A DNA stretch of 64,000 nucleotides, taken from Pocillopora damicornis (lineage: Eukaryota). The position numbers are program-made. The stretch lies in the NCBI RefSeq assembly GCF_003704095.1, contig NW_020846063.1, positions 620,001 through 684,000 of the forward strand. The letters are read 5' to 3'. Positions 1 through 6,000 of this stretch are shown here, piece after piece; within the stretch, counting starts at the first letter, position 1, and every line of letters begins with the position of its first letter.

Positions 1-3000
1 AAGCGTTACCGTTATCTTATCGTGTGACACAGTTAGCCGTGATTTCTCGGAAGCTTGTAAACTCTCGAAACCAAGCTAAACTTTACTATCCCGACCCTTG
101 TTATAACGAACTGGCAGCCTGTCCAGTGAGCGCATTGAACATGAATAATAAAATTAAACGAATCAGCTGTTGAATTTGAGAACAATAGGCCATTGATTGA
201 ATCACTGTCACGTGACAAGGTGGACTTTGCTAGAAAAATTCTTCAATCAATGTTGACGTCCCAGTTGGTGTTTCTAGGAAATCACTGATACCTCACAGAC
301 GACAAACATGCAGAAATCCCAAACGCGGGCCATTGTTTTGCCTTTTTGGACGTTTGCTGTCCTTGTAACGGCACTAGTTGGCCTATTCCCAGCGTTACTG
401 TATTGTATTGGTGAGATTGTAGTGCTGAAATCACGCTTTGAGCAACAACAGCAGACAATCGAGTACTTAGAAAACGTCACAGCGCATATTCAACGCAGAA
501 CTGTGGAAAACGATTTCTCGAGCGGCGAAACGCAAGAGGCTTACCAGAGTTCCAGGCTTACCATGAAATGGAAGGTTTGACGTTTTTACGTTTCCTTGGT
601 TGACAATTTTTATTTTGAACGACCTCGAGGTCTTAGAAACCGGTCGCTCAATTATACACACAATTGTCAAAGCTTGGCAGCTACTTAGGAACGCAAAGCA
701 CAATTACTCATTCTTTATCGGGTTTACACAAGACCTTAACGTTAATTGAAATCGTTTCTACACTAACTCAGAGTTAGTCCACGTAGGTATCTACAAGAAA
801 ACCAAGCTAGATATTTATTTGTGGAAAACTAAACGTCATTTCCGCATTGTACATTGTTTAGGAAAGCGAAATACGACTGATGAGACAGAGGAGGGACACT
901 GGTTCACGAAAAAATGATTCATGCCGCTGCAGGCGAGGTAGATATATCACTGAGATTTTCATCCAGTTTATACAAAACTACAAAATATAACAAAAAGAAT
1001 GGGACTAGGCGCAAGTCAATATCGGCTTGGGGTGTTATTTAGCAGCCTTAGATAGAGGGCTAGTGCATCGAGTTTATAAAATCCCCTCTCCCCCCCTTTC
1101 CCTGCCCAACACCCTTCCCCTTTTGTAAAGAGTCTGGGGCGCGAGAAAGTAGCAATGTTCATTCTGAATGAGAAGACAAGCAGCCAAATAAGCGGTCCAA
1201 AAAGCCCAGGGTTCGTGATAAAATGATAAAAAATTGGCCATACATATTTTTGCTTAAAACACTGTTTCTCGGCAATGAGGCATCCTAGAGGCACACACAA
1301 ATTATGCTTTTCCCTGGGAACAGACATTTCNNNNNNNNNNNNNNNNNNNNNNNNNNNNNNNNNNNNCCCCCCCCCCCAACGACCTTCGGCTCCAGTTCAA
1401 TTGCATTCCTAGCAGTTTATTCCTTACTCTAGCGTTTCACTTTTTCCGTCTAAATACACAGCCTACAAGAAGAGATTTGTAAAATGAGGCACTTCTTCAA
1501 TTGTTCGCATAATGATTATTTTGCCTTTACTCGAGCTGTTGGCTGAAGTCCATGAAAAGCTTATTTCTCGGAAGTCCTCTCTTACATCAAAAATCGCTTT
1601 TTGAACGAGGTGTGAAATTCAATCCTGCGACAGCCCTAAAATAAGAAAGCTGTTCGTTTTGCAATTAATTCTAAAAGAAAGGAAAAAAAAAGGTTTTACT
1701 TGCGACCTAATTTGCTTTTTATAACTTTCTCTGGATGATTCAAATTTTGTTGTTATGATATACAGTTACATAACTTGAGGTCAGGTATTGGGTCACTTTG
1801 GATAGTGGTTTATTTTGAAACTATATATATCGAAACAAAGCTTTATTAGCTTACCAAGGATATTGTTCCTGTAAGACAATACAGTTCAGATGTGGTCTGG
1901 CACGTTCTTGACCTTGGAGTCTCAATTCTAAACAATGTCTAGAAGCAATATCAATTTGCCTTGCAAAATTAAAATTCTGTTTTGAAAGCAGCTCTTTTTG
2001 ATAAAGACTATGGTTTAAGCTTCATGTACCAAAGAAAGTGAGGTCCTATAAAATGAGTCTTAAACGAATTTTAATGTCAGTTTATGCATGTTTTGGTACT
2101 TCACGTAATGACTTAAACGTCACGTACTGTAAGGGATAACTTGTCACGTGAAACAAAAAATACGGAGTGACCAGACACGTATATTCACGTTACACAAGTC
2201 TTTCTGTAAAAAAAAAGTTTTTCTATTTTAGGTCGTAAAGGAGAGCGGGGACCAAAAGGACAGAAAGGTGATGTTAAATGAAGGGGGGAAGTTGATGTTA
2301 TAATTTTGAAAAGTCATCCTTAATCGTACGAATTTCATATCTATTTTTCCATTCACACAAAAGCTTAAACGTGTCTTAAAGCAGTTTTGTTAAACACGAT
2401 TTAAATTTGTTTTCTTCATAGAAGCAGCTTAAACCGATGTTTGTCGACTTCAAATTTAGCACATTAAAGTACAAGTTAGTGACTACTTGAAGCCGATGGA
2501 AAATTCAGTTTTTCAGCTCTCTGTATCTTATTTTCATTCAATTAATCCGGATTTAACTAAACATGTCTTACTAGAGTGAATGGGGTATATGAAACTTAAG
2601 ACTGTTGTCAGAGCCAGCAAAGCAAGTGCTTAAATTATTCGTATATTTGAGCGCGAGTCTTTTTAATGTTTACAAATAGACACGCGCGGACATACGCAAA
2701 GAGGACATTTATCCTCGCGGTATCTTTTCCTATGTGTGCGCCTTTGTGATTCGCTTGCTGTTTAAGCGCATGACTAGGATGTAATTAGGAGTAGCCTCTA
2801 GGTCAAGATCCTGTGTAGAAACTTGTTATATTCAATTCAACAGAGGCTCTAATGTGTGTAAATAACAATCTGCTTTTTTTCTGTGCAGGATCGACCGGAC
2901 GAAAGGGAAGGGCAGGTAAAAAAACTTGTTTTTCAAAACTAGAAAGAAAAAGTACTTGTATCTCTTTTAAATACTGCATCCAGTTACGATTGTGGCGGGA

Positions 3001-6000
3001 AAAATATAATTTGTTGAGTAACCTACAATCTTACGAAATGTTGTCATGGTCATGAAAGATCAACACCACCATGATCGTCATCATCACCAGCATCATTATC
3101 ATTATCGTTAGCGGATCCCTTTAATCAACAACTTGAGTAGAACGTGTATACATATCATACAGGCGCGGTTACCGAACCGAAAGCACTTTTCTTATTCGTT
3201 TCGTTTTTTTTTTTTCCTCAGGACCGAAAGGTGACACGGGAGCACTCGGCAACACTGGACCGCCGGGAAGGGATGGACAGAAAGGGAAAATGGGTACGTG
3301 CGTTGTGTTTACTTTAATTAGTAATGGCAGCTCACCAAGACTGCCGCTAGGAATCTTGTCTAAAGCTTCAGATGGTCTCATACCACCGTTCCTTACTTTA
3401 AAATACTAGTCTTGATCGATCCCCTCAAGATAAGATATTTTCTCTTCTTAAGACATTCAAAAACAATGGACGAATAACCTCTTACCTAGGTCTCTATTGC
3501 TTCTCTTTCAGGTGAGCGAGGAGAGCCTGGGCCTCCAGGTAGTGCAGAAGTCTCTACTGGGCACCTACACAAAATATATGATAGCTCTGATTAAAATTTT
3601 TTCTTGGAAATGCACCATTCATCAGTTCCACTTACCATTTCATATAAAAAAGCGGCTGTCTCGTCAAGTGCGTAATTCAATCTGAATAGGAATGACACAC
3701 ATGGCACATTTTGTGGACTAAAACGAAAAAACCGGAGCAAAATTTGAGAAAACGAGCCACATAAAGGCCAAGTTTTTTAACTTTTCCTGTTTATCTTTTC
3801 TTATATTACTGCACTGAGTGTTTGCACACCAGTCATAAGTGTAATCAAATGGTTTTTATTGACAATTTCTTTGCCTTTACGTTTAAAACAGGACAACCAG
3901 GCTCAATGTTTCGGGTGAGTGTTTCTTACAATATATTGATGATGATATGCCTCTTTTTTCGCCCATTGGTTTTGTACTAAATACTTAAACACTAACTCTC
4001 TGCGGGTGATTTTTCTTAATTTTAAATTTTAAGTCTTGATGATACCACTAAGATTATCCTGCTTGAATTCATTTCCTCAAACTTTTGTTTGTATCTCAAT
4101 TCAGTCCACAGACTCGGCTCACATCGTTGGTTATGGTGAGCACATAAATCCCCCAAGAGGTACAACAAAATGTTAGTGTTAATCTCTTTTCTATTTTCTG
4201 GGTTTTTGTGAACGTGCACTATATAATAGCCTCGAAGTTACGCATAATTATTTTTAAGGCAAAGTCGAGTTGACTTACAACGTCAGGCGATCTGATCATT
4301 GCGAACTGTGAACAACCTTCGTTTTTAGCGCGCAAAGGAAAATCCTTATCATCGATCCTTCAAAGGCGATGTTATTAGAGAGATGACATTAGGAATAGGT
4401 ACTCGTTGAAATCATCAATTTCCCTGAGTCATGGTGAAATTATGATGATTATTCATACTTGTCTTTTAACTTTTACAAATTCAAATTCTTTCCTAGACGC
4501 ACATGGGGTGAGAGAGGAGCGGGGGGGGGGNNNNNNNNNNGAAGGTTCCAGCGATAGCATTTAACCTCCTATCTCCTCCGTACCCCTAGCAACGCCCATT
4601 GTACCAATTTTGAAATTAACACCCTCTTCTCTCTGCTCTCCTCAGTCCACCGCATCACGAACTGGAAACTAGGCCACATAACCGGTAGTATCAAATTCGT
4701 CAGCAACAGCTTCCTTGTGATTGGCACAACTGGCTACTACTTCGTGTACAGCCAACTCTTCTATTATGCAGGGGACACTCTCCTTATGGGCCATTACACA
4801 TACATCAACGAGGAACCGGTCATGCGCAGTCTGAGCAGTGTCGTCAGCGAGGAGAGAAAGTACAACACGAATTATCACGGCGCAGTGTTCATGCTCAGAA
4901 GCGGTGACAAAATATCTGTGCGCATCCCGTTCACAAAGTCCTACTTCATGCATAAGGAAACCAGTTATTTTGGTGCTTTCCTTATCAGCCCCGTGTTAAA
5001 CACGACCAGTTTTGTTCGAACGACTAACACAACTCAGGATTTCCCATAGAGCGGTTTTCAATCGAGTGTTGAAAGTTAAGTAATGCGGAAATGAAATGTT
5101 TTTTTTTTACTTCGCACCGTGATTGATTTGAAAATCTTGTTCCACTCTCTCGACCAATGAGATGAAAAACAAAAACAAATCGTTGACTTGGCATTCACCT
5201 TTTCCCCAGCTCGCCTCAAGCAATTAAGGTGGGGGAGGGGGGGATTGGAAGATTTTGGGGATCACATGCTTTTCAGGGAGAGGAGATAGGTGTGAAAAAC
5301 ATTACAGAGCTAAGGGAGGATCAGGTAAATTTATCGTACAAATACCAAAATCTTCCGAACCCCCACCCCTCAGGGGATAAATAAAGACATGTCCCTAAGC
5401 TTGTTTTTACATCAGATTTTCATTTCCTCTACTACTACTTTGCTTTGATTGGCTGTTGTCATTATTTTGGTTTGGTTTTAGCGACACTCGATCGAAATGC
5501 GCAATGACCTTGAAGTACAAGTTATACGTTCATTTTGTAGACTTAAATGTTTGAAACTTTATCTAGTAACAAGTTTATCAGCAGAGTTTCTATTACTTGA
5601 ATAACGTCACATACAGAAAGTCAAAAGTGTTAGGAAAGGGAAAAGTTCTTTTTCATAGTGCACTGTTCAACTCAAATATAAACAAATCTGCGTTTGCGAA
5701 TACTTCTCGCAGGCGGACACCTGCTATATGCATACGACGATTATTTTACATTTTTATTTGCTCTTTGTGACGTGCAAAATTCCCTACCAAGTGAAGGAGA
5801 CGACAACATATTACTTCGGAAAGTTGGAAAAAAATGGAAAGAATAAGCCAGTTAGAATGGTGTAGATTTAAAAAAAATTCTAATGAGATTCTTGAAAACG
5901 TACTCCAAAGTTTCAAGATTCCAAAAAAAGCGCAATAGTTCCTTCAAGTTCCCAAACTTAAGAAAAAAAAAGTTTCGGTGGTCTTTGACAACTGAATTTC

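What the first reader, a model, noticed from the sequence alone, without database searches (positions are those of the whole stretch)
308..5049. Complete ectodysplasin architecture with a collagen stalk built from 9n-bp micro-exons
Seen: TM, RQRR furin site, CRC, then 20 perfect Gly-X-Y triplets, then the TNF domain. The collagen is carried by symmetric phase-1 exons of 36, 27, 72 and 27 bp plus a 23-bp exit exon, none of which is evident from the ORF track. Established: EDA is the vertebrate TNF ligand with this TM-furin-collagen-THD layout and signals in ectodermal appendage development. Inference: an EDA-type shed, multimerising ligand exists in an apparently non-bilaterian animal. Any of the four 9n exons can be skipped without breaking frame or the Gly register, so splicing could tune stalk length.
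[Added by the scan's program, not by the reader: the finding's places include an assembly gap (unread letters, written N; its length is only estimated) at 1331 to 1366, 4531 to 4540. Whether the letters on both sides are continuous or in frame is not known: test that first.]
Basis: partly seen in the sequence, partly recalled or inferred. Interest (0 to 1): 0.68.

Follow-up and report, generated by a model that had tools for sequence, protein, structure and literature searches.

The report
Ectodysplasin-like TNF ligand gene, collagen stalk
This is an intact-looking animal gene for a membrane-anchored TNF-family signal with a short collagen stalk, laid out like vertebrate ectodysplasin, a kind of gene already described in Hydra, sea anemones and corals.

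Summary
On the + strand, 308-5049 carries a multi-exon gene. Exon 1 has the start codon and a 28-residue uncharged membrane anchor. Exon 2 has two furin-type motifs and a C-R-C. Four phase-1 exons of 36, 27, 72 and 27 bp and a 23-bp exit exon give 20 unbroken Gly-X-Y triplets. The 404-bp last exon matches Pfam TNF (E 7e-13) and, among single-domain matches to solved structures, ectodysplasin best (39 bits, next 31). Splice-bounded Gly-X-Y exons of 27 bp or more occur nowhere else in the window and in 0 of 50 shuffles. Both N runs lie in introns of the model, and a stop separates gap 2 from the last exon's frame. The link from exit exon to last exon is unresolved: 22 in-frame chains pass a splice-site filter. 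The source organism could not be identified. TM-collagen-TNF ligands in cnidarians are already published. Exon skipping is arithmetically possible but untested, and no call compared this exon pattern with other collagen genes. I searched exon by exon and never built or searched a joined protein. Verdict: a new member of a known kind, of modest interest.

The parts
308..574 (+). Exon 1: start codon, about 7-residue cytoplasmic tail, signal-anchor/TM (aa 8-35), helical juxtamembrane stalk with one N-X-T sequon
   Evidence: In-frame stop at 275-277 and first ATG at 308. Uncharged stretch aa 8-35, Kyte-Doolittle maximum 2.4. AF2 of this exon alone gives one helix aa 13-71, with pLDDT 86-93 over aa 11-60. 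Donor AAG|gtttga.
862..937 (+). Exon 2 (76 bp, phase 0 in, 1 out): two furin-type R-X-R-R motifs (RQRR, RCRR), Cys-Arg-Cys, strongly basic (9 K/R in 25 aa)
1331..1366 (.). Assembly gap 1, inside intron 2 (938-2231); right flank is a C homopolymer
   Evidence: Not filled; a hidden phase 1-1 exon cannot be excluded.
2232..2267 (+). Collagen exon, 36 bp, phase 1-1, 4 Gly-X-Y; nested alternative acceptor giving a 27-bp form (2241-2267)
2889..2915 (+). Collagen exon, 27 bp, phase 1-1, 3 Gly-X-Y
3222..3293 (+). Collagen exon, 72 bp, phase 1-1, 8 Gly-X-Y; nested alternative acceptor giving a 63-bp form (3231-3293)
   Evidence: Pfam Collagen E 0.0012, 19 bits on the exon alone; E 5e-4, 20.1 bits on the surrounding ORF. 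Both are below the 27.2-bit cut-off.
3512..3538 (+). Collagen exon, 27 bp, phase 1-1, 3 Gly-X-Y
3892..3914 (+). Exit exon, 23 bp, phase 1 in, 0 out: the last 2 Gly-X-Y, then 2 non-collagen residues
   Evidence: donor CGG|gtgagt.
4105..4159 (+). Candidate exon for the start of the TNF homology domain (contains A-H-I-V-G), phase 0 in, 1 out; alternative donors at 4135 and 4171 give the same phase
   Evidence: Only one frame is open. It can join the last exon directly. No match on its own in Pfam or the PDB.
4329..4398 (+). Uncertain optional exon(s): a 33-bp phase 1-1 form (4366-4398), or a 70-bp phase 0-1 form (4329-4398), the latter with or without a 23-bp exon at 4259-4281
   Evidence: enumeration. 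No match on its own in Pfam or the PDB. Not resolved.
4531..4540 (.). Assembly gap 2, in the intron before the last exon; left flank is a G homopolymer
   Evidence: TAG at 4555-4557 closes the last exon's frame between the gap and the exon.
4646..5049 (+). Last exon (404 bp, phase 1 in): most of the TNF homology domain, a C-terminal tail with two N-T-T sequons, stop TAG at 5047-5049
   Evidence: Pfam TNF PF00229 E 7.2e-13, 49 bits against a 23-bit cut-off, profile positions 16-127 of 127. PDB: ectodysplasin chains E 6e-9 to 1e-8. Atlas: top three clusters are TNF at 0.90-0.92.
5380..5385 (+). AATAAA hexamer, a possible poly(A) signal about 330 bases after the stop
   Evidence: motif only.

Best explanation
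The region is an intact gene for a type II membrane TNF-superfamily ligand of the ectodysplasin (EDA) type.

Shown here:
- An N-terminal signal-anchor followed by a helical stalk.
- A basic segment with two furin-type R-X-R-R motifs and a Cys pair.
- 20 uninterrupted Gly-X-Y triplets spread over five small exons.
- A C-terminal TNF homology domain most similar to EDA among single-domain matches to solved TNF ligands.

Inferred, by analogy with EDA and with transmembrane collagens:
- Three chains trimerise through the TNF domain and the collagen triple helix.
- A furin-like convertase cuts in the stalk and sheds a soluble trimer.
- Cutting at the first motif would keep the Cys pair on the shed ligand. 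The Cys pair and the collagen stalk could then bundle trimers into higher multimers.
- The basic patch could hold the ligand on sulfated proteoglycans.
- The target would be an EDAR-like TNF receptor signalling through TRAF6/NF-kappaB, as proposed for Hydra.

The small 9n-bp, phase-1 exons with split Gly codons need not, on this evidence, be a special regulatory device. As I recall, non-fibrillar collagen-like genes are commonly built this way, but no call checked that.
For: Splice model with canonical sites and consistent phases. TM hydropathy and a long helix in the exon-1 model. Furin-type motifs, Cys pair and basic content. Gly-X-Y exons found only in this gene, with 0 in 50 shuffles. Pfam TNF E 7e-13 on the last exon alone. 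Among single-domain PDB matches, EDA-A2/EDA-A1 rank first at 38.8-39.7 bits, with about 27 identities in 90 aligned columns by my count from the printout; next come lymphotoxin-alpha at 31.1 and TRAIL at 29.9. Human EDA has a TM, furin site, (Gly-X-Y)19 and THD (passage in PMC10094068). The same layout is reported for Hydra HyTNF and for Acropora and Nematostella TNFs (passages). Annotated ectodysplasin-A genes are expressed in Nematostella (passages). No Pfam match on the opposite strand or in other frames of the region: 0 of 11 ORFs apart from the collagen frame.
Against: There is no transcript evidence. The exons between 3915 and 4645 are ambiguous: 22 chains pass the filter and 3781 are in frame without it. 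The two short upstream candidates match nothing on their own. The collagen exons taken singly stay under Pfam's Collagen cut-off, at 19-20 bits against 27.2. The top-listed PDB row by summed score is a single-chain APRIL/BAFF fusion, 4zch_A at 65.7 bits, made of three stretches of about 20 bits each. In the printed alignment, the two Cys of the EDA chains face N and F here. AF2 of the last exon alone was poor (pLDDT 43) and Foldseek with it gave 0 matches at E<=0.001. Orthology to EDA rests on a ranking of scores, not a tree. The cytoplasmic tail is much shorter than I recall for human EDA, and the window begins only 307 bases upstream of the ATG.
Confidence: 0.72

Rival explanations
1. It is a lineage-specific TNF-superfamily paralogue, not the orthologue of EDA. 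Either the collagen stalk was captured independently, or a TM-collagen-THD layout is ancestral to a wider set of TNF ligands and was kept only in EDA among vertebrates.
For: The margin over other ligands is modest, 39 against 31 bits. APRIL and BAFF also score, and a published tree groups vertebrate EDA, TNFSF13 and TNFSF13B together (passage in PMC12843592). The EDA Cys pair in the aligned stretch is not conserved. Cnidarians are reported to have two collagen-bearing TNFs each, so one-to-one orthology is unlikely.
Against: The order of all four modules is the same as in EDA, and the stalk is almost the same length: 20 triplets against (Gly-X-Y)19. Among single-domain matches, EDA chains are the best. 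The Hydra authors report that HyTNF groups with human EDA.
Confidence: 0.2
2. The gene model is partly wrong, or the gene is not expressed as drawn. It could have a further 5' exon, an exon hidden in gap 1, a different set of exons between 3915 and 4645, or be a recently dead copy.
For: Many in-frame chains exist. An AG at 297-298 could accept an upstream exon in phase 0. Gap 1 sits in the longest intron. No transcript data are available.
Against: All modelled exons are open with canonical sites and matching phases. There is no stop or frameshift in any exon. The THD exon is full length to the end of the Pfam profile.
Confidence: 0.08

Closest known systems
Vertebrate ectodysplasin-A (EDA-A1/A2; PDB 1rj7, 1rj8, 7x9g)
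   Same: Type II membrane ligand with a furin-type site in the stalk, a short collagen-like run (20 triplets here, (Gly-X-Y)19 in human EDA by PMC10094068) and a C-terminal THD. Among single-domain matches it is the best-scoring solved relative of the THD.
   Different: About 30% identity over 90 aligned columns (my count). The collagen run here is uninterrupted, whereas I recall one interruption in human EDA, which I did not check. There is a Cys pair just before the collagen. The two Cys of the EDA chains in the aligned stretch are not conserved. The cytoplasmic tail is very short. Exon structure was not compared, and receptor specificity is unknown.
Cnidarian collagen-bearing TNFs: Hydra HyTNF, two Acropora and two Nematostella TNFs, Nematostella 'ectodysplasin-A' (XP_048588342.1 and XP_048588379.1 as named in PMC13367198)
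   Same: The same TM-collagen-THD layout is reported, with reported affinity to EDA (passages). This is probably the same gene family.
   Different: No sequence comparison was possible, because the protein searches and eukaryotic genomes were closed or absent here. The passages I read describe no exon structure, furin motifs or Cys pair for those genes.
[quoted passage not shown]
   Same: [quoted passage not shown] Many short collagen exons that are multiples of 9 bp are something I recall; I did not check this.
   Different: They have several long, interrupted collagenous domains and no TNF domain. Here there is one 60-residue run followed by a THD.
C1q/TNF-related proteins (adiponectin type)
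   Same: A Cys-containing N-terminal piece, a collagen stalk and a trimeric jelly-roll head that bundles into higher multimers (recalled).
   Different: They are secreted with a signal peptide and carry a C1q domain. Here Pfam reports TNF and not C1q at E<=1, and the N-terminus is a 28-residue membrane anchor.

Membership tests
TNF ligand superfamily | C-terminal TNF homology domain (Pfam PF00229) above the curated cut-off | tested here: met
   Last exon alone: 49 bits against a 23-bit cut-off, E 7.2e-13, profile positions 16-127 of 127. 69 PDB sequences at E<=1; all 60 shown are TNF ligands.
TNF ligand superfamily | Type II membrane topology (N-terminal signal-anchor, C-terminus outside) | tested here: met
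   Uncharged stretch aa 8-35, Kyte-Doolittle 2.4, with K and R before it. Helix aa 13-71 in the exon-1 model. Topology itself is inferred.
Ectodysplasin (EDA) type | Furin-type R-X-K/R-R site between the membrane anchor and the collagen run | tested here: met
   RQRR and RCRR in exon 2. Cleavage itself is not testable here.
Ectodysplasin (EDA) type | Collagen-like Gly-X-Y run between the furin site and the THD | tested here: met
   20 uninterrupted triplets under the splice model, unique in the window. Single exons reach only 19-20 bits against Pfam Collagen's 27.2. The joined run was not searched.
Ectodysplasin (EDA) type | THD groups with EDA rather than with other TNF ligands | tested here: inconclusive
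   Among single-domain matches, EDA chains score best: 38.8-39.7 bits, next 31.1.
Ectodysplasin (EDA) type | Cys pair inside the THD of EDA (its role as a disulfide is recalled) | tested here: not met
   In the printed alignments to 1rj8 and 7x9g, the two Cys of the EDA chains face N and F of the query.
Ectodysplasin (EDA) type | Intron positions shared with vertebrate EDA | not tested
   No comparator gene structure was available. PMC24264 is not held. Gene-model figures are in supplements, which are closed.
Ectodysplasin (EDA) type | Binds an EDAR/XEDAR-type receptor | not testable with these tools
   No receptor gene in the window. EDAR-like receptors are reported in cnidarians.
MACIT transmembrane collagens | Several collagenous domains separated by non-collagenous domains, with no other globular signalling domain | tested here: not met
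   One Gly-X-Y run of 20 triplets and a C-terminal TNF domain.
C1q/TNF-related proteins | C1q domain (PF00386) and a cleavable signal peptide | tested here: not met
   No C1q match at E<=1. The hydrophobic stretch is 28 residues long.

The most novel reading that the evidence does not exclude
The collagen stalk acts as a splice-set ruler. Four phase-1 exons of 9n bp, plus two nested acceptors shifted by 9 bases (2241 and 3231), could be used as cassettes. One gene could then give ligands with stalks from 2 to 20 triplets without ever losing frame or Gly register, which would set triple-helix stability, multimer size or reach of the shed ligand. The several 'isoform X' records named for the Nematostella ectodysplasin-A gene would fit this, but I could not inspect them.
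Probability: 0.12. Interest if true: 0.5.

Novelty: new member of a known kind. Interest (0 to 1): 0.27.

Why it matters
If the source is a cnidarian, the locus adds a cleanly resolved gene structure to a family so far discussed mainly at the protein-domain level. It would also support the published view that the EDA-type ligand layout predates bilaterians. The exon bounds would let annotators recover small exons that gene finders may miss. They also give exact junctions to count in transcript data. It does not open a new question: the existence of such ligands outside vertebrates is already in print.

Tried and rejected
- My first exon bounds were off by 1-2 bases and broke the frame. I corrected them.
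- My first drawing of the THD-side exons (55 + 70 bp) does not close in frame. Enumeration showed many alternatives and no way to choose between them.
- The short upstream candidates searched alone gave 0 Pfam families and 0 PDB matches at E<=10.
- AF2 of the last exon alone had mean pLDDT 43. Foldseek with that model gave 0 matches at E<=0.001 and unrelated top rows. I discarded both.
- I suspected a G-rich interspersed repeat next to the gaps. The repeat finder on 1-9000 found 0 direct families and 0 inverted pairs, so I dropped the idea.
- Rfam on the whole window gave 0 matches, so it gave no clue to the taxon.
- The Atlas search on the 577-aa ORF had a best score of 0.81 with low recognition, which is not usable for taxon or function.
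- A self-tblastn for a second TNF or anchor exon found only the query's own places at significant E.
- Literature search for split-codon collagen exon sizes: 0 papers held at least 5 of the 6 terms.
- Literature search for ectodysplasin with micro-exon terms: none of the 15 listed papers (of 201 found) holds 'ectodysplasin'.
- Literature search for ectodysplasin with coral: of the 20 listed (of 57 found), only the Hydra preprint concerns cnidarian TNFs.
- I did not use the genome-contig scan, because it holds only bacteria and archaea.
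Full report
**What is in the sequence**

Reading 1-6000 and testing bounds by script gives a + strand gene with canonical AG/GT sites.

- Exon 1 (308-574) opens with the first ATG after an in-frame TAG at 275-277. 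It encodes about 7 polar or basic residues, then an uncharged stretch at aa 8-35 (Kyte-Doolittle 19-residue maximum 2.4). AF2 of this exon alone gives one helix over aa 13-71, with pLDDT 86-93 over aa 11-60. That fits a signal-anchor running into a helical stalk.
- Exon 2 (862-937, phase 0 in, 1 out) carries RQRR, a second R-X-R-R (RCRR) and C-R-C. It has 9 K/R in 25 residues.
- Four exons follow: 2232-2267 (36 bp), 2889-2915 (27), 3222-3293 (72) and 3512-3538 (27). All enter and leave in phase 1, and each junction has a split G|GN codon.
- A 23-bp exon (3892-3914) leaves in phase 0.

**Is it more than chance?**

I scanned both strands of the 64 kb for phase-1, 9n-bp, AG/GT-bounded Gly-X-Y exons of at least 27 bp. 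The scan found 6. These are the four exons plus two nested forms that use internal AGs at 2241 and 3231. All six lie in this gene. None lay elsewhere, and none appeared in 50 mononucleotide shuffles. No further Gly-X-Y exon of 18 bp or more lies in the read parts of the introns.

**The gaps**

- Gap 1 (1331-1366) lies in intron 2 (938-2231, 1294 bases, the longest intron).
- Gap 2 (4531-4540) lies in the intron before the last exon. TAG at 4555-4557 closes the last exon's frame between the gap and the exon.
- Continuity or frame across the unread letters therefore does not affect the model. An exon lying wholly inside a gap cannot be excluded, so 20 triplets is a minimum.
- Both gaps abut a C or G homopolymer, as do 4 of the 7 N runs in the window.

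**The TNF domain**

The last exon (4646-5049, phase 1 in, stop at 5047-5049) was searched on its own.

- It matches Pfam TNF with E 7.2e-13, 49 bits against a 23-bit cut-off, over profile positions 16-127 of 127.
- In the PDB it matches 69 distinct sequences at E<=1, and all 60 shown are TNF ligands.
- The best single-domain matches are ectodysplasin chains: 1rj8 at 39.7 bits, 7x9g at 38.9 and 1rj7 at 38.8.
- Next come lymphotoxin-alpha 31.1, TRAIL 29.9, APRIL 27.9, TL1A 27.3, BAFF 25.9, FasL 24.5 and RANKL 22.8.
- The top-listed row, 4zch_A at 65.7 bits, is a three-domain single-chain APRIL/BAFF construct with about 20 bits per stretch.
- In the printed alignment I count about 27 identities in 90 columns to EDA-A2. 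The two Cys of the EDA chains in that stretch face N and F here.
- The Atlas places the exon among TNF clusters at 0.90-0.92, one of them commonest in Cnidaria. That is a lead only.

**What is not resolved**

The exons between 3915 and 4645 are not resolved.

- A 55-bp exon at 4105-4159 has only one open frame and contains A-H-I-V-G. As I recall, that looks like the first strand of a TNF domain.
- It leaves in phase 1 and can join the last exon directly. Alternative donors at 4135 and 4171 give the same phase.
- A 33-bp phase 1-1 exon (4366-4398), or a 23-bp (4259-4281) plus 70-bp (4329-4398) pair, could be inserted.
- In all, 3781 chains are in frame, and 22 of them pass a filter on pyrimidine tract and donor.
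- The short candidates match nothing alone.

The finding's note requires an exon-by-exon search, so I never built, searched or folded the joined protein. That leaves three things open: which of these exons is used, whether the whole collagen run passes Pfam's cut-off (single exons reach 19-20 bits against 27.2), and the fold of the whole domain. AF2 of the last exon alone was poor (pLDDT 43), and Foldseek with that model was meaningless (0 matches at E<=0.001).

**How it most likely works**

Shown: the module order is membrane anchor, helical stalk, furin-type motifs, Cys pair, collagen run, TNF domain.

Inferred, by analogy with EDA and transmembrane collagens:

- The chains trimerise through the TNF domain and the triple helix.
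- A furin-like convertase sheds the trimer. [quoted passage not shown] The PCSK consensus is given in PMC10538796 (passages).
- The EDA collagen domain is thought to multimerise trimers (PMC10094068 and PMC10815684, passages).
- Cutting at RQRR would keep the Cys pair on the shed form, and cutting at RCRR would remove it.
- The basic patch could bind sulfated proteoglycans, as I recall for EDA.
- The receptor would be EDAR-like, as reported in Hydra and corals.

**Comparison with what is known**

- The same preprint says two of five Acropora and two of four Nematostella TNFs have a collagen domain.
- PMC13367198 (passages) reports Nematostella 'ectodysplasin-A isoform X3' and 'ectodysplasin A', their expression, and furin.
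- PMC12843592 (passages) groups vertebrate EDA with TNFSF13 and TNFSF13B.

So an EDA-type ligand outside bilaterians is already known.

In the passages I read, I found no description of the exon structure of the cnidarian genes. My searches for ectodysplasin with micro-exon terms listed no relevant paper: 15 listed of 201 found, and none of the 15 holds 'ectodysplasin'. I recall that 9n-bp exons with split Gly codons are usual in non-fibrillar collagen-like genes. I could not confirm this, because one search found no paper. Supplements, which may hold gene-model figures, were closed, and PMC24264 is not held.

**The organism**

I could not identify the organism. For the same reason, no phylogeny and no comparison with cnidarian TNFs could be made. 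I do not take the contig for human.

**Neighbours**

Stop-to-stop ORFs of at least 70 aa numbered 141. I scanned 128 and 11. The remaining two overlap exon 1 and the last exon, whose translations were scanned. The neighbours found are:

- two sulfatase genes in tandem;
- two PAN-EGF-discoidin genes;
- FYVE pieces;
- an oxidoreductase;
- a bromodomain piece.

There is no second TNF exon.

**Verdict**

This is a new member of a known kind. The splice-ruler idea is arithmetically sound but untested. Interest 0.27.

Noticed in passing
window 17632-20931 and 22729-27225, - strand: Two sulfatase genes in tandem. Pfam Sulfatase matches on 4 ORFs each, covering the same profile segments. The first coding exons are 87% identical over 101 aa.
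   Followed up: partly
window 36210-37291 and 39428-41133, - strand: Two neighbouring genes with PAN, EGF and F5/8 type C (discoidin) pieces. The PAN-EGF exons are 32% identical over 138 aa, so this is an old tandem duplication.
   Followed up: partly
window 31153-31851 (-) and 33556-34617 (+): FYVE zinc-finger pieces on opposite strands, on either side of two N runs (32440-32539, 33102-33134). This is possibly an inverted duplication or an assembly join.
   Followed up: no
window 45986-48167, - strand: Three ORFs matching consecutive parts of a pyridine nucleotide-disulphide oxidoreductase (Pyr_redox_2), so probably one multi-exon gene.
   Followed up: no
window 53627-54619, 55655-57385 and 58531-58806, + strand: Two long ORFs (331 and 577 aa) with no Pfam match, followed by a bromodomain piece. 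They may be exons of one large chromatin-protein gene. The Atlas lead for the 577-aa ORF scored only 0.81.
   Followed up: partly
window N runs at 1331, 4531, 33102 and 62429: 4 of the 7 N runs in the window abut a C or G homopolymer of 8 or more bases. This suggests read drop-out at homopolymers rather than scaffold joins. The three 100-base runs do not.
   Followed up: partly
window 2241 and 3231, + strand: Internal AG sites inside the 36-bp and 72-bp collagen exons would give exons 9 bases shorter (27 and 63 bp) that still keep phase and Gly register.
   Followed up: no
window 297-299, + strand: An AG with a pyrimidine-rich run lies 9 bases before the start codon, in phase 0 with it. A spliced 5' leader or a further upstream coding exon beyond the window's start is possible.
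   Followed up: no
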